A stretch of 64,000 bases of DNA, taken from the IMG/VR virus record IMGVR_UViG_3300009506_000011, positions 1 to 64,000 of that record; one strand, written 5' to 3'. Both the position numbers and the translations under genes were made by a program. The notes beneath the pieces are model-generated. The model saw only the letters and a program-made list of their open reading frames with translations, was not told where the DNA came from and did not search any database. Shown piece after piece: positions 9,868 through 47,301 of the stretch. The stretch comes from a virus. How positions within the stretch are numbered: position 1 is the stretch's first letter; every line of letters starts with the position of its first letter.

Positions 9868-10419
9868 GTGGCAGCCAGCATCATCGAGAAGAAAGCGGCG
9901 GACGCGCAGCGCAAGCGGGATGCTCGCGCCAAGGCGGCTGCCGCAGAGACGGCCGCGGCGGAAGCGGAGGCGGCGGAGAAAGCCGCCGTCGCAGCGGCCG
10001 AAAAGGCCGCCGCCATGAAGAAGCGCGCCGATGCGCGTGCCGAGGCCGAAGCGGCCGAAACCGACGCCTTCGAGCCGCCAACTCCGGAAGAAGCGGCTGG
10101 CTTCAAGGCATGGTGCGTCCGCAACACCATCACGCCGCCGGGGCCCAAGCTGGCGCGCCAGCTCTTCATGCGGTGGAAGCGAACCAACGGCAACGCAGCC
10201 GAGACCAGCGAGGCAGCGGCCAAAGAGGTCAAGCGGTGGACGGTGATCCACTCCTGCCGCTACTACGACCGGAGCGGGGAGCGTCGTCGGGCTCTGGCGG
10301 GCAAGCCCATCGACGACATCGATCCGAGGGACGCCGCGTCCTTGCGGCGCCGCGGCCACATCGAGCCTTACCAGGAGCCGAGCAAGCCCGGGCTGAGCCC
10401 GGTTGCGGCCACGGGGTGA
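9868..10419 (+). CDS. hypothetical protein (Ala-rich)
   Basis: AAGGAGG Shine-Dalgarno; in the head operon. Confidence 0.55.
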   Translation: MAASIIEKKAADAQRKRDARAKAAAAETAAAEAEAAEKAAVAAAEKAAAMKKRADARAEAEAAETDAFEPPTPEEAAGFKAWCVRNTITPPGPKLARQLFMRWKRTNGNAAETSEAAAKEVKRWTVIHSCRYYDRSGERRRALAGKPIDDIDPRDAASLRRRGHIEPYQEPSKPGLSPVAATG

Positions 10420-10423
10420 TCCC

Positions 10424-10903
10424 GTGGCGCACCTCATCGGCCAGAGCGACATCGAGGACGTCATCGGCGTCAAAAAGCTCGTTGAGCACGCCGATGACGA
10501 CGGTGACGGCGTCGCCGATGCGAACGTGATCGAGAAGCTTCTCACCAAGGCCGACGACTACGCCCGCAACGCCCTCAAGCCCGGGTTCGGCACAATAGCT
10601 GCCATCGACGACCTCGTGTCACACGATGCGGCGATCCGCAACGACATCACGGAGCTGGCCATCGGTCTGCTCGGGCGGCGTCGGGAGCAGATGCTCGGCG
10701 AAGACGGCCAAAGCGCTTACGCCAAATGGTTCGATCCGGCGCACAAGCGGCTGGTGGCAATCGGCCGCGGCGCAGGGCGCTCGGCGGGCGAGGAGCAAGC
10801 TGGCCAGAACCAGCTTTTGCCGACGCGCATCGTGCCAGACGACCGGGAGCTGATGTTCGGCTCGCCCCAGGGCTCACCCTACCCGACGAGCGGGGGTTTC
10901 TGA
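10424..10903 (+). CDS. Mu gp36-like head-tail adaptor (DUF1320)
   Basis: SDIEDVIG..LVEHADD.GDGVAD..VIEK N-terminus; synteny. Confidence 0.75.
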   Translation: MAHLIGQSDIEDVIGVKKLVEHADDDGDGVADANVIEKLLTKADDYARNALKPGFGTIAAIDDLVSHDAAIRNDITELAIGLLGRRREQMLGEDGQSAYAKWFDPAHKRLVAIGRGAGRSAGEEQAGQNQLLPTRIVPDDRELMFGSPQGSPYPTSGGF

Positions 10904-17034: not shown

Positions 17035-17718
17035 ATGAAGAAACCGAAGCCATGGCAGCGAGGCGAGGACATCGCTGCCTTTTTCCGCGGCAAATCGGCC
17101 GCGGAGCTGGACATCATCGAGCATGGCGGGCAGGCGTTCTACAGTGAACGGCTACGCCGAAAAAGCCCGCAGGACGGCCAAGCCGAGCATGTCAAGCTTC
17201 GCGTCCGCGCCGTCGGCGCCCTCGATAAGGCGCGAGCTCGGCTGCAAGCGCTGATCTGGGCACGCAAGCTCGCCGTTGAGGAGGGCTACAAGGTGCCGGA
17301 GGTGCTCACGATCGCGGAGGCAGAGGCGATCTACGGCGCCAGCTACTTCGACTGGCTCGACACGCTCTGCATTATCTCTCAGGTGGCGGTCGAGCATGAC
17401 CAGCCGGCTGAGCCCTTCTTCATGGCAGAGATGCTGGCCAAAAACTACACAGAGGCGTCCCTGTCGGCCTTGTGGGAGGCGATCTGCTTCTACACCAACC
17501 ACGAGGACATTCGCGCCGACGACCTGGACGAGGAGCAGTTCGTGGCGACGGTGCTCGCAATCGACAGAACGCGAGGTGTCCTCCCTTTACTCGCGCTCGG
17601 TGGCGGCTGTCGCGACCGATTTGTGACTTCTATGGCAAGTCGGCTTGCGAACTTTCTGACGCCCAAGTCATCCTCGCCGTCCACCGGGAAATCGACAGCC
17701 AGCCTACCCACGACCTGA
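17035..17718 (+). CDS. tail assembly chaperone (G), with -1 frameshift extension to 17780
   Basis: Between tube and tape measure; slippery heptamer C CCT TTA at 17583-17589. Confidence 0.7.
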   Translation: MKKPKPWQRGEDIAAFFRGKSAAELDIIEHGGQAFYSERLRRKSPQDGQAEHVKLRVRAVGALDKARARLQALIWARKLAVEEGYKVPEVLTIAEAEAIYGASYFDWLDTLCIISQVAVEHDQPAEPFFMAEMLAKNYTEASLSALWEAICFYTNHEDIRADDLDEEQFVATVLAIDRTRGVLPLLALGGGCRDRFVTSMASRLANFLTPKSSSPSTGKSTASLPTT

Positions 17719-23686: not shown

Positions 23687-24136
23687 ATGGCATGCAGATA
23701 CCCAAACCCCTGCGATTGCTTTATTTGCAGGCCCGACGGCCTACTTGCCGCGGCGCGGCGCCGGCCCACGCCAGGACAAGACCCCGTGGCGGATATGGCC
23801 GAGCCGGTGACGTTCGCCGCGCAACCGCCGGACTGGGCGAGTCAGAGCGACGACCCGCTCGCCGACCTTGCAGCGGCGGAGGGTCGGCTTGGCCCGGCAC
23901 CGCGACCGATCATCGTGCCACGCGCCTTCGCCGACGAGCATGGCGCGGCGCTGCAGCGGCTCGGCGCCGAGCTGGTCAGCATCGACGGGATGCCCTATCA
24001 GCCGCCCGCGAAAAGCGAGGAAGAGATCGCTGAGCAGATCGCTGGCTACGAGCGCGGCGTGCAAGCGACCACAGCGCAGCTGCTTGACGTCTTCAGCCAG
24101 CTCGTCATCGCGGTCGCGCCAGCGCGGACCAGCTAG
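23687..24136 (+). CDS. hypothetical protein
   Basis: MACRYPNPCDCFIC... Confidence 0.4.
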   Translation: MACRYPNPCDCFICRPDGLLAAARRRPTPGQDPVADMAEPVTFAAQPPDWASQSDDPLADLAAAEGRLGPAPRPIIVPRAFADEHGAALQRLGAELVSIDGMPYQPPAKSEEEIAEQIAGYERGVQATTAQLLDVFSQLVIAVAPARTS

Positions 24137-24283
24137 CCTGTACCCGGCCTCGTAGCCTGGTGTGCTCATGCTAGCTGCACACCGGCCGAGTCGCGCCTCA
24201 GCGGACAGGCCGGCAGCGAGGCAGCTCCTAACATAGGTTGCTAGCAGGACGCTCCGCCGCCGTCAACGTGGTAGACTCGGCGC

Positions 24284-25156
24284 ATGTCAGCAGGCAACCG
24301 GATGATCGAGCTGGGCCGCGTGCTCGCGACCAGCGTTACGCCCACGAACCGAGCGATCCTCGGCAACATCGGCTCCCTCGGCGACGATAATACCGGCGAT
24401 CAGGGCGATATTGGCAACGATGAGCGCTTTTTCACCCATCCCGTCTACTGCCGGCCGCTCGGCCACGTGAAGGAGGAGGACGCCACGCCGCTCAACCCGG
24501 CGGGCGTCTGCGAGTCGGTCATCATCCGATCGGCGGACGAGGTCTATCCCATCGGCTACCGCGACCTGCGCCTCAGCCGGCTGGTGAACCCGATCGAAGG
24601 CGAGGTGGGGATCGTCGGCTACCAGGGCGGTTTCATCAGCCTGCGGCCGAACGCGGACGGCGACGGGACGAACTTCCTGCTCTACGGCGCCCGACGGGGA
24701 ACTGACGGCGAGGTGGAGGCGGCCAGCTCGATCGCCATCGACTCGACCAGCTCTCAGAGGCAGATCCTGCTTCAGCACGAGCTCGGCCAGACGCTCACGC
24801 TGAACAAGGACGGGGGCGTCGTCATGGCCAACGCCGCCAACGACGCTTGGCTTGAGGTGAATCCGGACGGGATCTCGCTGAACGGCAACACCGCGATCAC
24901 CGGCGCCGTCCGCGAGGTGACGGTGGGCGATCCGCTGTCGGCGCAGAACGTGGCGCTGGCGCCGGACCTGATCACCTTCGTCCAGAACGCCGGCCCGACC
25001 TTGACGGCTCTCATGACGGCCGTCAACGTGCTGGCGCCGGGGACGTTTACCCCTGCGCAGATCACGGCCATGGCCAACGCCTTCGCGCCGTACGTGGCCG
25101 CGACAACCGTCCAGTCGACGATCCTCAAGGCATCGCCCTTCCTGCCATCGCCGTGA
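24284..25156 (+). CDS. baseplate spike (Mu gp45/gpV-like)
   Basis: YRDLRL...EGEVGIVG; beta-helix-like repeats; synteny. Confidence 0.7.
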   Translation: MSAGNRMIELGRVLATSVTPTNRAILGNIGSLGDDNTGDQGDIGNDERFFTHPVYCRPLGHVKEEDATPLNPAGVCESVIIRSADEVYPIGYRDLRLSRLVNPIEGEVGIVGYQGGFISLRPNADGDGTNFLLYGARRGTDGEVEAASSIAIDSTSSQRQILLQHELGQTLTLNKDGGVVMANAANDAWLEVNPDGISLNGNTAITGAVREVTVGDPLSAQNVALAPDLITFVQNAGPTLTALMTAVNVLAPGTFTPAQITAMANAFAPYVAATTVQSTILKASPFLPSP

Positions 25157-25368
25157 GCAGCTGCGCCTTCCCGCCGATCCAGCCGCCAGGCTTCGCGCCG
25201 CCGGGCTTGCCCGGCGTGCCGGCGCTTCCGCCGACGCCGACGCCGCCTGACTACCCCGGCCTGCCATTCCCACCGATCCAGCCGCCAGGCTTCGCGCCGC
25301 CGGGCTTGCCCGGCGTGCCGGCGCTTCCGCCGCAGCCGACGCTGGACTGTCCGCTTGACGCGCCGTGA
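25153..25368 (+). CDS. small Pro-rich protein with an internal tandem duplication
   Basis: FPPIQPPGFAPPGLPGVPALPP x2; GTGA overlap. Confidence 0.55.
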   Translation: MSSCAFPPIQPPGFAPPGLPGVPALPPTPTPPDYPGLPFPPIQPPGFAPPGLPGVPALPPQPTLDCPLDAP

Positions 25369-25389
25369 GAACGGCAGCACCTTCTCGCC

Positions 25390-25926
25390 ATGCGCAAGCT
25401 CGCTCCGTTCCTCCTCCTTGCTCTCCTCCTTCCGCTGATCGCCGCCTGGGACTTCGGCATCGAGCACCGGCACCAGCCGCTGCTGCTCGGCGACGCTACA
25501 GGCTGGGAGCACGACCGCGCTACCCTCGTCCAGACCGGGACGGGGCAGGTATGGCTCGAGCTGCCGCAGCTCTACGACGGCGAGACGCTCGGCTACGTCG
25601 AGGTACGTTACCAGGGCGGCGCCGGCCACACGAGCAATCCGGTCGGTCTCGGGATCGTGACGCCGCGGCTCGACGTCTACCACGTCGACCGCGACGGCAA
25701 GGAGACGAAGCTCTGCTGGGGGCAGGACGATCCGCATCAGAGCCCGGCCGCCTACGAGCAGCCGCACAGCGTCTACGCCACCGGCTGCGAGCACGCCGTG
25801 GACCCCGCGAGCGGCCGCATCGTGGCGCGGTGGTCAGGCGAGTTTACGGAGGGGTGGTACGACGGTGGACCAGCTGACTTTCACCTCGGTGCTAAGGTAC
25901 TGTCGATCACGACCGTGACATACTAG
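25390..25926 (+). CDS. secreted protein paralogous to tail protein 31520..32242
   Basis: Signal peptide MRKLAPFLLLALLLPLIAA; colinear shared motifs. Confidence 0.7.
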   Translation: MRKLAPFLLLALLLPLIAAWDFGIEHRHQPLLLGDATGWEHDRATLVQTGTGQVWLELPQLYDGETLGYVEVRYQGGAGHTSNPVGLGIVTPRLDVYHVDRDGKETKLCWGQDDPHQSPAAYEQPHSVYATGCEHAVDPASGRIVARWSGEFTEGWYDGGPADFHLGAKVLSITTVTY

Positions 25927-26337
25927 CTCGAAGCCCATCATGAGGTACTCGACGCCGGGGACCGGGTAGCCACAGCACTGCGGTCGGTTGACGCCGCCCA
26001 TCAGCATCCGCGCAGATTGCCGCAGAAGCTGGTCGTAGCTGGGTCCGCCGCCTGGCCGGTTGTCCTCCGCCGCGCGGGGACCTAGGACGCGGTCGCACCG
26101 GCTGCACCGCCACGCCGGCGCCACCACGGAGGACGTCTCGCCTTCGCCGATTCCCCAGTCAGCGAAGAGCCACCACCGGTAGGGGTTTCTCAAGTCGGCG
26201 GGATAATGCTGCCGGGCCGCGTGTAGCTGCCGTGGCGATGGTCGCTTCGGATGCGTCTGAGCGTAGAGCTTCAGCGAATCCCGAGGCGATAGCACCGTGT
26301 ACCGCGTGCCGCTCGGCGTCAGGACCTTGTAGCTCAT
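25834..26337 (-). CDS. hypothetical protein
   Basis: MSYKVLTP..., CxxC; ATGA overlap upstream. Confidence 0.45.
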   Translation of the reverse strand: MSYKVLTPSGTRYTVLSPRDSLKLYAQTHPKRPSPRQLHAARQHYPADLRNPYRWWLFADWGIGEGETSSVVAPAWRCSRCDRVLGPRAAEDNRPGGGPSYDQLLRQSARMLMGGVNRPQCCGYPVPGVEYLMMGFELVCHGRDRQYLSTEVKVSWSTVVPPLRKLA

Positions 26338-26783
26338 GGGTTTCGGATCCGGTTGTCGGCGCGGCCTGGCCGACTCGTGCGGAACGTCAGCTCGACGCAC
26401 GGCTCCCGCCACTCGTCGCCGTGGCCGTTGTTGCCGAGCTTGACGAAGCGGCCGGTCTTAGGCCGGCGGAAGCCAAAGGCGCAGCTATGTCGGGAGTGCC
26501 AGGACCAGAACAGCTCTAGGCCGAGCAGCTTGTGCTCGTGCATGTCGAACGCCCAGCGACGAAGCTCCTCGTGCCATACTTGCCATGGCCAGCCGTCCCT
26601 GGTGGTAATCGCCAGATCCAGGAATGGCTCGCGCAGCAGGTCGCCCCGGTGGCCTAGCCTGACTCGCCGGATGCCGACGGCTCCGCCGTGGCCGTCATGC
26701 CAGAACCAGTACAGCTCATGAGGGCCAAGCTGGTACTCGTGATTGTCCCAGCCCCAACGGCGCAGCCGCTCACGCCAGCTCAT
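26334..26783 (-). CDS. hypothetical Trp-rich protein
   Basis: Operonic ORF. Confidence 0.5.
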   Translation of the reverse strand: MSWRERLRRWGWDNHEYQLGPHELYWFWHDGHGGAVGIRRVRLGHRGDLLREPFLDLAITTRDGWPWQVWHEELRRWAFDMHEHKLLGLELFWSWHSRHSCAFGFRRPKTGRFVKLGNNGHGDEWREPCVELTFRTSRPGRADNRIRNP

Positions 26784-26870
26784 GGCACCCGACTCTGTAC
26801 TTTCGCAGCTCGGCCTTCTCCTCGTCTGTCAGATCCGGCAACTCAAAGCCCCATCGATCAAGCAACCGTT

Positions 26871-27425
26871 TCATGGCCACCTCGTCAGCTGGACATCGTC
26901 CGGCACTCGTGCCTTGCTCCGGGCGAGCGGATGCTTCGGGCTTCCGTCGCTGTTCTTGCCGAGGCACCACAGCTCGCGGCGCTCGTCTCGGCGCAGCGGC
27001 GCGGCTAGCCGCTGGCGGATCGACTCGCCGCGCTCAAGCGTCCACGGCTGCAGCAGTGCGCCCCAGGCTGCCACCACAAGCTCGGCTGACTGCGCGGCTC
27101 GCAGGACGTGGTAGTCATTGTGGACGCCCACAGCGGCCAGCAGACCGCGCTGCTTGATGGTCCGCTCGACCACCGCCGGATCGGTGGCTCGGAGAGCGAA
27201 GAGATTGACGACGATCAGGCTGCCGAATCCCCACCGGCGGCTGAAGCGGATGCAACGGCGGATCGTTGGATCGTCTTGCTCCGCGTCCGCGGTGGATGGA
27301 TTGCACATGATCCAGCAGACGACCGGCCCGCCGCCGCCGCACGGTCGCACGAGGGTCCAGCGGTAGCGTCCGCAGCCGCTGATCCCGGCACCGTAGCCGA
27401 CGGCGAGCGTGAGCTGCTGTGTCAC
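26871..27425 (-). CDS. DUF1643-family protein
   Basis: CGRYRW.L, IMCNPSTADA..DDPTIRRC, VNLFALRATDP, VVAAWG, PKHPL. Confidence 0.9.
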   Translation of the reverse strand: MTQQLTLAVGYGAGISGCGRYRWTLVRPCGGGGPVVCWIMCNPSTADAEQDDPTIRRCIRFSRRWGFGSLIVVNLFALRATDPAVVERTIKQRGLLAAVGVHNDYHVLRAAQSAELVVAAWGALLQPWTLERGESIRQRLAAPLRRDERRELWCLGKNSDGSPKHPLARSKARVPDDVQLTRWP

Positions 27426-28243
27426 GACCGCCGCCGCTCCCGGAGAGCAAGTTCGATTTTGGCGTGTGCGGCGTCGGCATCATGTCGGCTTCGGATGCCA
27501 CCTAGTAGCGTGGCGTAGTCAGCCTCTGCCGGCGCGGCGTGGCCGCTCGCGAGCACGTCCTCTGGCTTCAGCCGCACCAGCAGTTGGGCGCACAGCTCCG
27601 TCGCTCCTTCGCGTCCCAGCTCTGTGATGAGGCGCTGTGCGGTGGTCTCGGGGTCCGTGACGAGGTCCGTGGGCGTCTGGCCTTCGAGGTGGAGACTCAC
27701 CTCGAAGGCTGCTAGGTGGCAGTCATCGCATGCATCTGACAAGCGCTCGTGACAGACCAGCTCGGAACGGATCTGCTCTATCCTCTCTGGCGTGCACTGG
27801 GATATGACATCGTTGCACGGTTCAGCGGGGGCCGTCTCTACTGTCAGCCAGGCGATGAGATCTCCCAGGTCAGCGCCGATCCAGTCGGCCGCCGCCCACA
27901 TCGGCTCCGGCTCGCCAACTTCGAGTAGGACGGCCGTCGGCTTGTCTGCGCCGATGGCGTAGCCAAGCTCGAGGTGAGCGCTCCGGCCGCACGGCATGAC
28001 GAGCACCAGCGCGTCGCAAGATTCGAGCGCCTGCATATCGCAGACGAAGCTCCGCTGGGCGATGGGGTGCTTCAGCGCCTCGACGACCTCCTCTGCCGAC
28101 CAGCTCTCCCAGGCTGGATCAATATCCGACCAGTGGAAGTCAGCGTGGGTGCGGAAGTCGTAGACATCGTTGCCGGCGGCGCGCAGCGCCTGAACGACGC
28201 CGGGCTGTCGCGGATTTCTCCAGCTGCTTGCAACATAGATCAT
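27422..28243 (-). CDS. nucleoside deoxyribosyltransferase-like domain protein
   Basis: MIYVASSWRN, D...L..CDALVLV.PCGRSAHLELGYA.G. Confidence 0.75.
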   Translation of the reverse strand: MIYVASSWRNPRQPGVVQALRAAGNDVYDFRTHADFHWSDIDPAWESWSAEEVVEALKHPIAQRSFVCDMQALESCDALVLVMPCGRSAHLELGYAIGADKPTAVLLEVGEPEPMWAAADWIGADLGDLIAWLTVETAPAEPCNDVISQCTPERIEQIRSELVCHERLSDACDDCHLAAFEVSLHLEGQTPTDLVTDPETTAQRLITELGREGATELCAQLLVRLKPEDVLASGHAAPAEADYATLLGGIRSRHDADAAHAKIELALRERRRS

Positions 28244-28270
28244 GCCCCGACACTACAGCACCTGCGCCGC

Positions 28271-28282
28271 CTAGTCAACTAG
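28271..28282 (-). promoter_or_regulatory. CTAGTTGACTAG promoter/operator
   Basis: TTGACT-N17-TAGTGT-N6-ATG(28243). Confidence 0.7.
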
Positions 28283-28331
28283 TAACTGCTAGCAGGATAG
28301 CCCCGGCGGCGGCCGGCGGTAGAATTGGCTC

Positions 28332-28760
28332 ATGGTCTTCATCCCGCCGTGTGGCGTCTCGCCGCTGTCCGCCTACGTGCTCGGAGCGGCGGTGCCAGCG
28401 CCAGACAGCCCCCCGGTGTACCGCGCGGACGCCTTCGACCTGGCGACCGGTGAGCTGGCCAGCGTGGTCGGCGGGATCGACCCCACAGACGCCGCCGTGC
28501 AGGACGCGTTCACGATCCGGCGCGGCTCGGGCGCAGTCACCGAGGGCGGCCACGCGTTCGACGCGATCAAGCACAACGAAGACCAGACGCCCCGGCGGCT
28601 GCAGGATGAGGCCGGCGTCATCTTCAAGCCCTTCGTTGAGCGCCGGGACGTGGACCTCCTTCGGAGCAGCACGAAAAGCGGAGCAGCCGATCACCAGGAG
28701 CTGACGGTCGAGTACTACAACCGCGCCCGAGCCCAGAAGGAGACGGTGAGGCCGGCATGA
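28332..28760 (+). CDS. baseplate wedge protein (gp46/gp25-like)
   Basis: Position before baseplate J; size. Confidence 0.6.
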   Translation: MVFIPPCGVSPLSAYVLGAAVPAPDSPPVYRADAFDLATGELASVVGGIDPTDAAVQDAFTIRRGSGAVTEGGHAFDAIKHNEDQTPRRLQDEAGVIFKPFVERRDVDLLRSSTKSGAADHQELTVEYYNRARAQKETVRPA

Positions 28761-30313
28761 CGATCGAGGCTCGAGCGGTCGAGCGCGCCTTCCCGCTCTA
28801 CGACCTCGGCGCGCTCGAGGCGGAGATGCTCGCCAACTTCAGGGTGGGACTCCGCGAGCTGCCGAACCCAGACACCGGCCTGCCGTTCACAGAGCGCGAG
28901 ATCGCCACCACGACGGCGCGGCTGTCGCGCTACTGGCGCGAGGCGAGGGCGCTGGATCTGGCCCTCCAGGGCGGGCAGCAGCGTGCGCTGTACCTCGCCG
29001 ATCAGAATCGCATCGATCGCTCATCCTCGCTCTATCTCACCTCCCACCACGGGTCGACGTGGGGCGAGGCGCCGCTCGCGGCGGTCGGCGGTAGCGGTCT
29101 CGTCTCCGCCGTGGCCGAGCCGGGTGCGATCTTTCTCGGCAGCACAACGATCCCAGACCCGGGAGCGACGCAGTGCACCCGAAACGGCCTGACCTACCAG
29201 GTCCTCTTCACCGTTGTGACGCCGTTCGGCGGCTCGGCGGAGCTCACGCTGAAAGGCGTGGACACAGGCCAGGAAACGAATCTCAGCCCCGGCGACGTGC
29301 TCCAGTGGTCGGCCAACAAGCCGGGCGGCGCGCAGGCAACGTGCACGGTGACGCAGCAGTTCAGGGGTGGGGCGCCGAAGGAGAGCGCCGGCCAGTTTGC
29401 CAAGCGGCTGCTCGCGCGCATCGCGCACAAGCCAGCAGCGGGCAACGATGCGCAGATGCGAGCCTGGGCGCGCGCCGCGACCGTCGCCGTAGAGGACGCC
29501 TTCGTCTACTCCTGCGCCTTGCATGCCGGAACGACGGTGGTGTGCGTGACACAGAAGCGCGGCGGAGTCCCGGGTCCGGATGGCAGGATCCCATCGATCG
29601 GAACGCTCACGGACGTGACGCTGTACCTCGTACCGCCGGGGTCACCGGTGGTGCCGGCAAACCCGCTGATTCTGGTCACGCTGCCCACCAAAGAGCCGGC
29701 CGCGCTACAGATTGGCCTGTCGCTGCCGTTCGGGCAGGCAGCCGGCTGGAAGGACTTCGAGCCCTGGCCGCCGGCGCTGTGCACCGTGTCCTCGGTCGCC
29801 TCCCCGACGGAGTTTCAGGTGCAGACGCTTTCCTCGCCGCCGGCTGGCGTACCGGCGCTGATGGCCTGGGTGGAGTCCCTGTCCCGGTTTGAGCGGCTGC
29901 AGGTGCAGTCCGTCACCATCGACAGCTTCCCCTTTTTCGACGTGGTGCTGAATGCGGCGCCGACGTCTCCTATTGTCGAGAATCAGGTCATCTCGCCCGC
30001 GCTGTTCACGGACGCCAGGCAGCTGCTCCTGGGCGAGACGATAGAGGCGTACTTCGACAGCCTCGGGCCGGGCGAGGTGGTGAACCTGGCCACCGACACG
30101 CGAGCACACCGAGCCTACCGTTTCCCAGAGCCGAACGAGGAGTATCCCCAGCGCGCCGGCGCGGGCATCCTGGCCTGGCTTCAGGACGCCTTCGGCGCCG
30201 CGCTTGCTGACAGCACAGCAAGCGGCGGCGGCACGCCGCCTATTCCCGCAGACCCCAGCCTCGGACCGGCAATGATGGTGCCGGGCTCCGTCTTTATCTA
30301 CGCGTTGACCTGA
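28757..30313 (+). CDS. baseplate J-like protein (Mu gp47)
   Basis: G..TNL, GGAPKES..QF..RLLARI...PAAGN, WAR...V.DAFVY, GT..V.V. Confidence 0.85.
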   Translation: MTIEARAVERAFPLYDLGALEAEMLANFRVGLRELPNPDTGLPFTEREIATTTARLSRYWREARALDLALQGGQQRALYLADQNRIDRSSSLYLTSHHGSTWGEAPLAAVGGSGLVSAVAEPGAIFLGSTTIPDPGATQCTRNGLTYQVLFTVVTPFGGSAELTLKGVDTGQETNLSPGDVLQWSANKPGGAQATCTVTQQFRGGAPKESAGQFAKRLLARIAHKPAAGNDAQMRAWARAATVAVEDAFVYSCALHAGTTVVCVTQKRGGVPGPDGRIPSIGTLTDVTLYLVPPGSPVVPANPLILVTLPTKEPAALQIGLSLPFGQAAGWKDFEPWPPALCTVSSVASPTEFQVQTLSSPPAGVPALMAWVESLSRFERLQVQSVTIDSFPFFDVVLNAAPTSPIVENQVISPALFTDARQLLLGETIEAYFDSLGPGEVVNLATDTRAHRAYRFPEPNEEYPQRAGAGILAWLQDAFGAALADSTASGGGTPPIPADPSLGPAMMVPGSVFIYALT

Positions 30314-31519: not shown

Positions 31520-32242
31520 ATGGCCAACTTTTCACGCGTCAACCCGCTCGGCTGGGCGATCTACGAGAAGCTCCTCGCGGCGCAGATGAACCAGCTGGAC
31601 ATCAACATGACGCTCGCCGTCAATGGCCAGGGCTCGACCCATACGCCGCTTGAGGACATTGTCCTAAAGGGACCGTTTGGTCTGAGGCTTGAGGACAGCC
31701 AGCTCAAGTACGAGGACGATCGAGTCGTGCCCCGGCGGCAGCCGATGAACGGCGCCATCTTCGACAGCGGCGAGTGGGAGTGGTCCGTTAATGGGGTGCA
31801 GCTGCGCCAAGGCAGCACGGCTGATAGCGGAGCATGGCTGCGGCTTTACCTCACCAATCTGCCGGACGGCGGCAAGCTCACGTCGGTCACGGTGTCTTGG
31901 GATGGCCCATCCGGTCACAGCGCCGATCCAATCCTCGGCCCAGGGCCCCCGCCGTTCCTGATCGATTTGCCGCGGCTCGAAGTGTATCGCGCCGCGCAGG
32001 ACGGCACTGTCTATTCTCTCGGTGTTGCGATCGACAACGTGGTCACGCGCGCTCTCTATCAGGAGTCACACGAGATCACGGTCACATGCGGCGACCACGT
32101 CATCGACCTCGTCAACAACGCCTACTACATCCGCTTTCGGGGCGAGTATGATCCGAGCCCACCGTTTGGCGACTTCCTGCCGTTCGGTCTCCTAGAGGCC
32201 ATCAAAACGAGCTGCAAGGTGTCAGCTCAAAGCGAGTACTGA
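31520..32242 (+). CDS. tail fibre / baseplate-distal protein
   Basis: N-terminus FSRVNPLGW...L.A.QMNQLD.N; follows the gp48-like gene. Confidence 0.6.
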   Translation: MANFSRVNPLGWAIYEKLLAAQMNQLDINMTLAVNGQGSTHTPLEDIVLKGPFGLRLEDSQLKYEDDRVVPRRQPMNGAIFDSGEWEWSVNGVQLRQGSTADSGAWLRLYLTNLPDGGKLTSVTVSWDGPSGHSADPILGPGPPPFLIDLPRLEVYRAAQDGTVYSLGVAIDNVVTRALYQESHEITVTCGDHVIDLVNNAYYIRFRGEYDPSPPFGDFLPFGLLEAIKTSCKVSAQSEY

Positions 32243-32613
32243 TGAGATATCTGCCGTTCATCCTGTTGGTCGGCTGCTTGGCCGAGCTGAGCGTGTCCGA
32301 CGAGCGAGCGCTCGATTGGAGCGACTGCAAGCGGTCAGAAGAGCCATGCCCAGCGCACGGCATCGCCTACGAATGCGACGCTGCGGTGGAGATCCCGGAG
32401 CACTGCGACTGGCTCGGCCAGCTCGTCTGCTGCGAGTACCTGCCGCCCGTCGACGTGTCGCTGCCGGCGCCTCCGATCGAGTGCGAGCGGCTGGACGACC
32501 CGGAGCACAAGCTCTGCCCCGTCGGCATCGCTCACACGTGTCGCGTGCTGCCGCCGCACTGCCAGTGGTCCGAGTCGGGACCGCCGGTGGCGTGCTGCAT
32601 GCCGCTGATCTAG
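32242..32613 (+). CDS. Cys-rich lipoprotein with two internal repeats
   Basis: Lipobox LVGC; CP..GIA..C...P.HC.W....CC x2. Confidence 0.65.
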   Translation: MRYLPFILLVGCLAELSVSDERALDWSDCKRSEEPCPAHGIAYECDAAVEIPEHCDWLGQLVCCEYLPPVDVSLPAPPIECERLDDPEHKLCPVGIAHTCRVLPPHCQWSESGPPVACCMPLI

Positions 32614-46914: not shown

Positions 46915-47301
46915 ATGCCGGATTTTCAGCTCAAGCCCATCGGCTCCGAGGTGGTCGACTGGGACGATCCCGCGACGACGGACACGCCGAGCCGGCTCAA
47001 CCCGGTGGTGCGCCACCCGCACAAGTATCACCGGATCTTCCGAAACTTTCCTCTCACGATCAAGGCCATCGTGGACGGCATCGAGGGACCCGCGGATGGC
47101 GCACTCGGTGGCCGGCTCTTCGCTTGGAGCTGGGTGGTCACGCGGGAGTCTGGCTACGCGCCGCCGATTCCGACGTCTGCCGGCTTCAGCAGCACGGTGG
47201 TTTTCCCGGCCTTCCACTTCCTCACCGGCCACTACGAGCTGCTGTGCTCGCGGCCTGACGGTGGCGCCGTAGGCGTCACCTTCGAGATCGAGGACACCTG
47301 A
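46915..47301 (+). CDS. hypothetical, probably virion-associated protein
   Basis: Codon style like the structural genes; TAGGCT-N5-ATG. Confidence 0.5.
   Translation: MPDFQLKPIGSEVVDWDDPATTDTPSRLNPVVRHPHKYHRIFRNFPLTIKAIVDGIEGPADGALGGRLFAWSWVVTRESGYAPPIPTSAGFSSTVVFPAFHFLTGHYELLCSRPDGGAVGVTFEIEDT

What the first reader, a model, noticed from the sequence alone, without database searches (positions are those of the whole stretch)
25390..25926. Signal-peptide-bearing paralog of the phage's own tail protein
Seen: colinear similarity to 31520..32242: L.DG..L..V.V...G..GH...P, PRL(D/E)VY....DG, Y...H, H..D, R..GE(F/Y). The virion N-terminus is replaced by a Sec-type signal peptide, and the gene has its own promoter (TTGACG-N17-CACCTT-N6-ATG). 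Inference: an exported decoy of a tail or receptor-binding domain that could mask receptors (superinfection exclusion) or block incoming tails.
Basis: partly seen in the sequence, partly recalled or inferred. Interest (0 to 1): 0.7.

Follow-up and report, generated by a model that had tools for sequence, protein, structure and literature searches.

The report
Exported copy of phage tail-fibre tip
A complete 84-kb marine-sediment phage carries, as an add-on gene with its own promoter, a secreted version of the sugar-binding-like tip domain found on its tail fibre; related phages made such exported versions several times, which suggests (but does not prove) that they coat the cell surface to block phage attachment.

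Summary
ORF A (25390-25926, 178 aa) and the tail-fibre-position gene ORF B (31520-32242, 240 aa) share one domain (BLASTP E 6e-11, shuffle z 17). Both fold with high confidence as a CBM-like beta-jelly-roll.

ORF A replaces ORF B's ~65-residue N-terminal region with a classic n/h/c signal peptide. Its TTGACG-N17-CACCTT-N6-ATG upstream matches a leaderless-promoter layout: 9 sites precede ORFs of 50 aa or more, against 0.39 expected.

New findings:
- The domain defines an unnamed family of 213 representatives, mostly 220-240-aa fibre-type proteins.
- Fourteen of 152 representatives are exported, with Sec signals or lipoboxes, arising at least three times.
- Two exported members are fused to a 6-Cys module that ORF C (32242-32613) also carries. 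ORF C is a lipoprotein gene overlapping ORF B's stop codon.
- ORF A and a reverse operon form a cassette missing from a syntenic relative.
- That relative keeps ORF B's N-terminus but has a different tip.

Caveat: ORF A is not a recent copy of ORF B. ORF B ranks 30th of 138 by identity.

Receptor masking or exclusion is the best reading (about 0.45) but remains inferred. There are no expression data, the host is unknown, and neighbourhoods of homologues could not be fetched. The scan also noted this stretch in another window of the same genome.

The parts
25355..25389 (+). Promoter-like element of the phage's leaderless type. The -35 is TTGACG (25355-25360), followed by a 17-nt spacer, the -10 CACCTT (25378-25383), and 6 nt before the ATG. 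There is no Shine-Dalgarno sequence. The -35 lies inside the end of the upstream Pro-rich ORF.
   Evidence: Sequence. The same architecture occurs at 9 ORF starts genome-wide against 0.39 expected. The generic sigma-70 scan does not call it. Upstream regions of neighbouring genes are shown.
25390..25446 (+). Signal peptide of ORF A (residues 1-19: MRK, hydrophobic core, IAA, then WD). It is predicted to be Sec/SPase I type. There is no lipobox cysteine and no twin-arginine motif.
   Evidence: Hydropathy and AF2 helix 5-19. Conserved in P0002-P0004 and P0008. The sister proteins P0014, P0016 and P0018 carry lipoboxes at the equivalent place.
25447..25926 (+). Mature ORF A, a single CBM-like beta-jelly-roll domain homologous to the distal domain of ORF B. 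It keeps the family's near-invariant residues: L67, H80, P84, P92, D113, Y122, H126, Y144 and E151. It also has a clade-specific cysteine pair, C109 and C133.
   Evidence: pLDDT 92.8. One search gives Z about 10 to CBM22, CBM15 and CBM16. One search covers the Cys pair. Codon-position GC is 0.72/0.46/0.86, typical of coding sequence.
25834..28243 (-). Reverse-strand operon that forms the accessory cassette together with ORF A. Its ORFs are 27422-28243 (nucleoside 2-deoxyribosyltransferase-like, weak), 26871-27425 (DUF1643), 26334-26783 and 25834-26412. The last overlaps ORF A's 3' end by 93 nt.
   Evidence: The cassette is absent from the syntenic relative.
28244..28278 (-). Leaderless-type promoter of the reverse operon: TTGACT-N17-TAGTGT-N6-ATG, with the ATG at 28243.
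31520..31714 (+). ORF B N-terminal region (residues 1-65), which I infer attaches the protein to the baseplate. Residues 4-51 are conserved with the fibre-position gene of the related phage (51% identity).
31715..32242 (+). ORF B distal domain (residues 66-240). It has the same CBM-like jelly-roll as ORF A, plus a C-terminal tail (C.V..Q.EY) that the exported forms lack.
   Evidence: pLDDT 90.8; the same PDB hits as ORF A, Z about 10.
32242..32613 (+). ORF C, a 123-aa lipoprotein with lipobox LLVGC and two ~40-aa six-cysteine modules. Its ATG overlaps ORF B's TGA (TGATG). The same module is fused to exported family members P0018 and P0151.
   Evidence: (E 1e-12).

Best explanation
ORF A is an accessory ('moron'-type) gene. 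Its product is exported by the Sec pathway and consists of one carbohydrate-binding-module-like jelly-roll domain. That domain belongs to the family that forms the distal, swappable tip of short tail fibres in this phage group.

Proposed mechanism:
1. The gene is transcribed from its own leaderless-type promoter.
2. The protein is translocated, its signal peptide is removed, and a clade-specific cysteine pair forms a disulfide outside the cytoplasm.
3. The free domain binds the envelope glycan or surface structure that fibre tips of this family recognise, and occupies it.
4. Virions that use that receptor adsorb poorly to the infected cell and its debris. These would be competitors with P0009-like tips, possibly the phage's own progeny or siblings.
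5. ORF C, the 6-Cys lipoprotein co-translated with the fibre gene, is its likely membrane-anchored partner. In two other lineages the two are one polypeptide.

Shown here: homology, fold, the N-terminal swap, the promoter architecture, accessory status, recurrent export in the family, and the fusions.

Inferred: actual export, disulfide formation, ligand binding, and any effect on adsorption.
For: - Homology of ORF A to ORF B: E 6e-11, z 17. The profile search finds both ORFs and 213 representatives.
- Both models are confident (pLDDT 92.8 and 90.8) and hit the same CBM22/15/16/36/6 jelly-rolls at Z about 10. BFVD hits are the C-terminal domains of tail fibres and tailspikes.
- ORF B sits after the Baseplate_J and Mu gp48-like genes.
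- In a syntenic relative, the gene at ORF B's position keeps residues 4-51 (51% identity, E 2e-12) but carries an unrelated C-terminal domain. The shared domain is therefore a swappable tip.
- ORF A has a signal-peptide-like N-terminus, and sister-clade proteins have canonical lipoboxes.
- Fourteen of 152 representatives are exported. The tree needs 4 changes, and well-supported branches force at least 3.
- The Sec-type exported clade has a Cys pair found in 0 and 2 of 138 fibre-type proteins.
- Two fusions in different exported clades, with opposite domain order, link the domain to ORF C's 6-Cys module.
- The leaderless promoter layout occurs 9 times against 0.39 expected.
- The cassette is absent from the relative: 445 bp there against 2963 bp here between the same flanking genes.
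- Principle from the literature: purified T5 RBP pb5 added to cells blocks T5 infection, and the exclusion lipoprotein gene llp lies directly downstream of the RBP gene (PMC9586334).
Against: - There are no expression or export data.
- ORF A's -10 (CACCTT) is the weakest of the set and fails a generic promoter scan. No terminator was found after it.
- ORF A is not specially similar to ORF B. ORF B ranks 30th of 138 overall and 45th on variable columns, so the same ligand specificity is not implied.
- A CBM-like fold at Z about 10 is common and shows no function (notes).
- The 60-kb fragment of the related phage has no exported copy of its own tip, so the strategy is not universal.
- The host and its envelope type are unknown.
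- There is no PADLOC, Pfam, PHROG or PDB sequence match.
Confidence: 0.45

Rival explanations
1. ORF A is an exported lectin with a role other than phage exclusion. The free glycan-binding domain would change the infected or carrier cell's surface properties (adhesion, aggregation, biofilm or particle attachment in sediment). Alternatively it would bind envelope polymers to assist the phage in another way.
For: - The CBM-like fold is shared with many non-phage glycan binders.
- ESM Atlas structural neighbours include PEP-CTERM and SLH surface proteins.
- ORF A is no closer to its own phage's tip than to many others.
- No defence-family match was found.
Against: - By sequence the domain belongs to a family that is otherwise almost entirely fibre-type proteins with a conserved N-terminus.
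- Exported forms arose repeatedly from such proteins.
- Exported forms are linked by fusion to a lipoprotein encoded right after the fibre gene.
Confidence: 0.2
2. ORF A works with ORF C as a two-part envelope complex at a step other than receptor occupancy. It might jam a channel or block DNA entry after adsorption, as Llp, Cor and Ltp do. It might instead act late in release, for example by tethering or neutralising envelope fragments at lysis.
For: - ORF C is a disulfide-rich small lipoprotein overlapping the fibre gene's stop codon.
- This is positionally like llp downstream of the RBP gene in T5 (PMC9586334).
- Two independent fusions join the two proteins.
Against: - No sequence similarity to Llp, Cor or any PHROG was found.
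- ORF C has no C-terminal membrane segment and no adjacent lysis genes, so it does not fit a spanin. No Amidase_2 endolysin was found in the genome.
- In this phage ORF A and ORF C are 6 kb apart and on different transcription units.
Confidence: 0.15
3. ORF A is not exported, or is not functional. The hydrophobic N-terminus could be an uncleaved membrane anchor, or the gene could be a hitch-hiking remnant of a fibre-tip exchange.
For: - No SignalP run and no experiment is available.
- The hydrophobic stretch is 17 residues long.
- The promoter's -10 is weak.
- The 3' end overlaps a convergent ORF by 93 nt.
Against: - Three 65-68% identical full-length homologues keep the signal peptide, the domain and the Cys pair.
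- All near-invariant family residues are retained.
- The codon-position GC signature is that of a coding gene.
- The sister clade has unambiguous lipoprotein signals.
- A ~94%-identical variant of the ORF A 3' region occurs in another study's sediment or mangrove metagenome.
Confidence: 0.1

Closest known systems
T5 Llp and T1/phi80 Cor superinfection-exclusion lipoproteins (PMC9586334)
   Same: All are phage-encoded, exported, disulfide-containing envelope proteins linked to the receptor-binding gene. ORF C lies directly downstream of the fibre-position gene, as llp does after pb5. The proposed outcome is also the same: receptor made unavailable, and progeny protected.
   Different: Llp and Cor are unrelated in sequence to their phage's RBP, and they act allosterically from the periplasmic side of FhuA. 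ORF A is itself homologous to the fibre tip, has no lipobox and lies about 5.6 kb from the fibre gene. No sequence similarity to Llp or Cor was detected.
Blocking of infection by free receptor-binding protein (purified T5 pb5 added to cells; PMC9586334)
   Same: A soluble receptor-binding domain occupying the receptor prevents adsorption. This is exactly the mechanism proposed for ORF A.
   Different: That is a laboratory manipulation with the phage's own RBP. Here a phage would encode and export a dedicated, diverged copy. I found no paper describing this in two literature searches, but the library is incomplete.
Carbohydrate-binding modules of the beta-jelly-roll type (CBM22, CBM15, CBM16, CBM36, CBM6) and CBM-like distal domains of phage fibres and tailspikes
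   Same: The fold matches: VIA-align Z 10.3-10.0, rmsd 3.2-4.0 A over 119-138 residues. BFVD hits are the C-terminal domains of Klebsiella and Enterococcus phage fibre and baseplate proteins.
   Different: There is no sequence match to any Pfam CBM family or PDB chain. Sequence identity in the structural alignments is 5-11%. Ligand and binding site are unknown.
Phage morons (independently transcribed accessory genes inside late operons)
   Same: ORF A sits between tail genes, has its own promoter-like element, and is absent from a syntenic relative.
   Different: No terminator was found. It forms a cassette with a convergent four-gene operon. Lysogeny is not evident, since no integrase was found.

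Membership tests
Unnamed fibre-tip domain family (213 representatives; ORF B type) | Significant profile match over the whole ~150-residue domain, with the near-invariant residues (H80, P84, P92, D113, Y122, H126, E151 in ORF A numbering) | tested here: met
   hmmsearch finds ORF A's cluster at E 5.5e-91 and ORF B at 3.9e-67. The residues are retained.
Unnamed fibre-tip domain family (213 representatives; ORF B type) | Conserved N-terminal region of about 65 residues (assumed to attach the protein to the virion) and the C-terminal C.V..Q.EY tail | tested here: not met
   ORF A has a signal peptide in place of that N-terminus and ends at the last beta-strand. It shares the domain but not the fibre-type architecture.
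Sec (SPase I) signal peptides | Positively charged n-region, hydrophobic h-region of about 7-17 residues, small residues at -1/-3 | tested here: met
   MRK, then LAPFLLLALLLPLIAAW, with I-A-A before W20. The pattern is conserved in P0002-4 and P0008. This was judged by inspection only, because no SignalP was available.
Sec (SPase I) signal peptides | Actual translocation and cleavage | not testable with these tools
   Needs PhoA or Bla fusions or N-terminal sequencing.
Bacterial lipoproteins (SPase II) | Lipobox [LVI][ASTVI][GAS]C at the end of the signal peptide | tested here: not met
   ORF A has no cysteine in residues 1-30. ORF C (LLVGC) and the relatives P0014, P0016, P0018, P0040, P0041, P0057, P0083, P0128 and P0151 each have a cysteine at the end of the signal peptide; my lipobox pattern matched seven of these nine, and P0016 and P0040 were read by eye.
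Llp/Cor exclusion lipoproteins | Sequence similarity to Llp or Cor | tested here: not met
   Neither ORF A nor ORF C has a significant PHROG or Pfam match. ORF C's only match is phrog_3903, of unknown function, at E 0.095.
Llp/Cor exclusion lipoproteins | Small lipoprotein gene adjacent to the RBP gene | tested here: inconclusive
   Met by ORF C, whose start overlaps ORF B's stop. Not met by ORF A, which is 5.6 kb upstream and has no lipobox.
Carbohydrate-binding modules (beta-jelly-roll) | Fold similarity | tested here: met
   Z about 10 to CBM22, CBM15, CBM16 and CBM36 for both ORF A and ORF B.
Carbohydrate-binding modules (beta-jelly-roll) | Membership of a defined CBM sequence family, and demonstrated glycan binding | tested here: not met
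   None of the 88 family members has a Pfam CBM hit, and the PDB profile search found nothing. Binding cannot be tested here.
Phage moron | Own promoter, and absence from related genomes at the same site | tested here: met
   The promoter layout is enriched genome-wide. The cassette is absent from G527:C292 between the same flanking genes.
Phage moron | Own terminator | tested here: not met
   No terminator-like site follows ORF A. Only weak hairpins were found.

The most novel reading that the evidence does not exclude
Phages of this group have repeatedly turned the receptor-binding tip of their tail fibre into an exported protein. The exported form is either secreted or lipid-anchored, and is sometimes fused to a 6-Cys lipoprotein module encoded next to the fibre gene. 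It would occupy the surface receptor. This would be an RBP-derived class of superinfection-exclusion or progeny-protection factor that has not been described.
Probability: 0.4. Interest if true: 0.75.

Novelty: new variant of a known kind. Interest (0 to 1): 0.6.

Why it matters
Known exclusion proteins that act at the receptor, such as Llp and Cor, are unrelated to the phage's receptor-binding protein. A naturally exported copy of a fibre tip would be a simple route to exclusion and one that can be predicted from sequence.

It would give a rule for finding such genes: look for a signal peptide on a domain that is homologous to a tail-fibre tip. It would also offer a handle on unknown receptors, since the soluble domain could serve as a probe.

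In addition, the finding defines a new fibre-tip domain family of 213 clusters and a new 6-Cys lipoprotein module tied to it. Both currently lack any annotation.

Tried and rejected
The contigs of the homologues could therefore not be fetched: P0002 14.9 kb, P0016 41 kb, P0041 23 kb, and P0014 and P0009, each on a 2,791-bp JGI contig that may be the same one.
- Scans for related loci found nothing in viral contigs or in metagenome contigs.
- Pfam, PHROGs, PADLOC, a PDB sequence profile and tblastn of ORF B against 50,697 phage records gave no match for ORF A, ORF B or ORF C.
- ESM Atlas gave no score above chance level.
- The giant proteins P0010 and P0053 in the first profile search are spurious summed matches to fn3 and cadherin repeats. 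They do not match the 88-sequence profile.
- Sequencing runs: no RNA holder is listed. Laid contigs were short. One apparent joint skipping 23765-28909 has only 21 letters on one side and was discarded.
- Host: DUF1643 relatives are scattered over Planctomycetales, Acidimicrobiia, Ktedonobacterales and Cyanobacteriota at 47% identity or less.
- The family was not found in the 401 Actinomycetota genomes searched. It was found once in 401 Planctomycetota genomes.
- That single hit is a 60-kb contig whose flanks are also phage-like. It is a binned phage contig, so the host link is weak.
- Spanin reading of ORF C was rejected: it has no C-terminal membrane segment and no neighbouring lysis genes.
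- One literature query timed out.
- The Pro-rich ORF 25153-25368 and its positional counterpart in the relative are not significantly similar after composition adjustment.

Full report
**Setting.** The window is bases 1-64000 of a complete 84,186-bp virus record with direct terminal repeats and 67% G+C. The best-holding sequencing run is a marine sediment metagenome. Variants occur in sediment and mangrove metagenomes of other studies. No tyrosine integrase, serine recombinase or rve transposase was found.

**The observation.**
- ORF A (25390-25926, 178 aa) aligns colinearly with ORF B (31520-32242, 240 aa). BLASTP gives 31% identity over 140 residues, E 6e-11.
- The local alignment score is 118, against 31.4 +/- 5.0 for 1000 shuffles (z 17).
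- ORF A has the coding signature of this genome (GC1/2/3 of 0.72/0.46/0.86). It also has three full-length homologues at 65-68% identity.
- Its first 19 residues are MRK, a 17-residue hydrophobic core, and I-A-A before W20. AlphaFold2 models them as a helix in front of the beta domain.
- ORF B residues 1-65 have no counterpart in ORF A.

**Promoter.**
- TTGACG-N17-CACCTT-N6-ATG is present but fails a generic sigma-70 scan.
- The layout TTGACN-N16-18-NANNNT-N5-8-ATG/GTG occurs 10 times in the genome. Nine of these precede ORFs of 50 aa or more. Shuffles give 1.04 and 0.39.
- The sites include the start of the convergent operon at 28243.
- Several other tail genes have TAnnnT 5-7 nt before their ATG and no Shine-Dalgarno sequence.
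- The phage therefore uses leaderless-type promoters. ORF A has one, with the weakest -10.

**What the domain is.**
- A profile of the two ORFs and their close homologues found 213 representatives at E of 1e-3 or better among 1.84 billion proteins.
- Most are 220-240 aa and share a conserved N-terminus (consensus, examples). In longer proteins (P0015, P0020) the domain is C-terminal.
- None of 88 members matches Pfam, PHROGs or PDB by sequence.
- The models of ORF A (pLDDT 92.8) and ORF B (pLDDT 90.8) hit the same solved structures: CBM22, CBM15, CBM16, CBM36 and CBM6 jelly-rolls at Z about 10.
- In BFVD they hit the C-terminal domains of tail fibres and tailspikes.
- ORF B follows the Baseplate_J and Mu gp48-like genes.

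**The related phage.** A related phage contig, G527:C292 (60 kb), was binned in a Planctomycetota MAG, and its flanks are phage-like. It is syntenic through the tail module, with 27-53% identity. The gene at ORF B's position there shares residues 4-51 (51% identity, E 2e-12) but has an unrelated C-terminal domain. The shared domain is thus a swappable distal tip on a conserved adaptor. That is the usual anatomy of a receptor-binding protein. The virion location itself is inferred from position.

**Accessory status.** In the relative, the Pro-rich ORF and the gene that corresponds to window 28332-28760 (which I take to be gpW-like from its position) are 445 bp apart. In the window the same two genes are 2963 bp apart. 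The extra DNA is ORF A plus a convergent four-gene operon, which includes a DUF1643 gene and a weak nucleoside 2-deoxyribosyltransferase-like gene.

**Export is recurrent in the family.**
- Fourteen of 152 representatives have a signal peptide in place of the fibre-type N-terminus: five of Sec type, and nine with a cysteine at the end of the signal peptide (seven matched my lipobox pattern; P0016 and P0040 were read by eye).
- Several have Pro/Thr-rich linkers. They lack the C-terminal tail of the fibre type.
- On a quick maximum-likelihood tree the label needs four changes, and starred branches force at least three.
- ORF A lies in a clade of eight exported proteins, sister to the fibre-type P0009 (SH-aLRT 97). 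ORF B lies in another clade.
- ORF B ranks only 30th of 138 fibre-type representatives by identity to ORF A, and 45th on variable columns.
- ORF A is therefore a family paralogue of old standing, not a recent duplicate of ORF B.
- The Sec-type clade carries a cysteine pair (C109 and C133 in ORF A). At those columns, 0 and 2 of 138 fibre-type proteins have cysteine. This fits an extracytoplasmic disulfide, though I could not measure the distance in the model.

**Link to ORF C.**
- ORF C (32242-32613) starts on the last base of ORF B's stop codon.
- It encodes a lipoprotein (LLVGC) with two six-cysteine modules.
- P0018 is lipobox, then domain, then 6-Cys module (55% identity to ORF C's second module, E 1e-12).
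- P0151 is lipobox, then 6-Cys module, then domain.
- The two fusions lie in different exported clades and have opposite domain order. This argues for a functional link between ORF A-type proteins and ORF C.

**Interpretation.**
- The best reading (about 0.45) is that exported ORF A binds the surface structure recognised by fibre tips of this family and makes it unavailable. ORF C is the likely lipid-anchored partner.
- The principle is established for T5: purified pb5 blocks infection, and the exclusion lipoprotein gene llp lies just downstream of the RBP gene (PMC9586334).
- I found no paper describing an exported RBP homologue as an exclusion factor. That search is limited.
- Against this reading: there are no expression or export data, the -10 is weak, no terminator was found, there is no special similarity to the phage's own tip, the host is unknown, and the fold is common.
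- Rival readings are a surface lectin with another role (0.2), a joint ORF A/ORF C function at another envelope step (0.15), and a non-exported or relic gene (0.1).

**Limits.** The gene neighbourhoods of the other exported members, which would be the most decisive computational test, remain unknown.

Noticed in passing
window 32242-32613 (+): ORF C is a 123-aa lipoprotein (lipobox LLVGC) made of two ~40-aa six-cysteine modules. Its ATG overlaps the stop codon of the fibre-position gene. It has no family match. The same module is fused to exported fibre-tip domains in P0018 and P0151.
   Followed up: partly
whole genome, e.g. window 25355, 28278(-), 4516(-), 44818(-), 52521(-), 60318; also TAnnnT-N5-7-ATG at 17035, 22333, 24284, 28332: The phage uses leaderless-type promoters: TTGACN-N16-18-TAnnnT-like, then 5-8 nt, then ATG, with no Shine-Dalgarno sequence. 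Nine such sites precede ORFs of 50 aa or more, against 0.39 expected. Other genes (15102, 19970, 28757, 31520) do have AGGAG-like sites.
   Followed up: partly
window 25153-25368 (+): A 71-aa proline-rich repeat ORF (two copies of a PPIQPPGFAPPGLPGVPALPP unit) overlaps the stop of the gene at 24284-25156. The related phage has a 99-aa proline-rich ORF ending in the same CPLD at the same position. The similarity is not significant after composition correction.
   Followed up: partly
window 25834-28243 (-): A convergent four-gene operon has its own leaderless promoter. Its genes are nucleoside 2-deoxyribosyltransferase-like (weak), DUF1643, and two unknowns. It is absent from the syntenic relative. 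The last ORF (25834-26412) overlaps ORF A's 3' end by 93 nt.
   Followed up: partly
L011 (G527:C292:27700-47600), ORF 9913-10455: A related phage contig binned in a Planctomycetota MAG keeps the fibre N-terminus (51% identity over residues 4-51) with a different 120-aa tip. This is an example of tip swapping. In that phage the homologues of window genes 46915-47301, 52569-52931 and 52921-54702 follow the fibre directly. In the window they lie about 15-20 kb away.
   Followed up: partly
proteins P0014 and P0009 (metagenome): The exported lipoprotein form P0014 and P0009, the fibre-type protein closest to the exported clade, are each recorded on a 2,791-bp JGI contig. This may be the same contig, which would put an exported copy next to a fibre gene. 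It could not be fetched.
   Followed up: no
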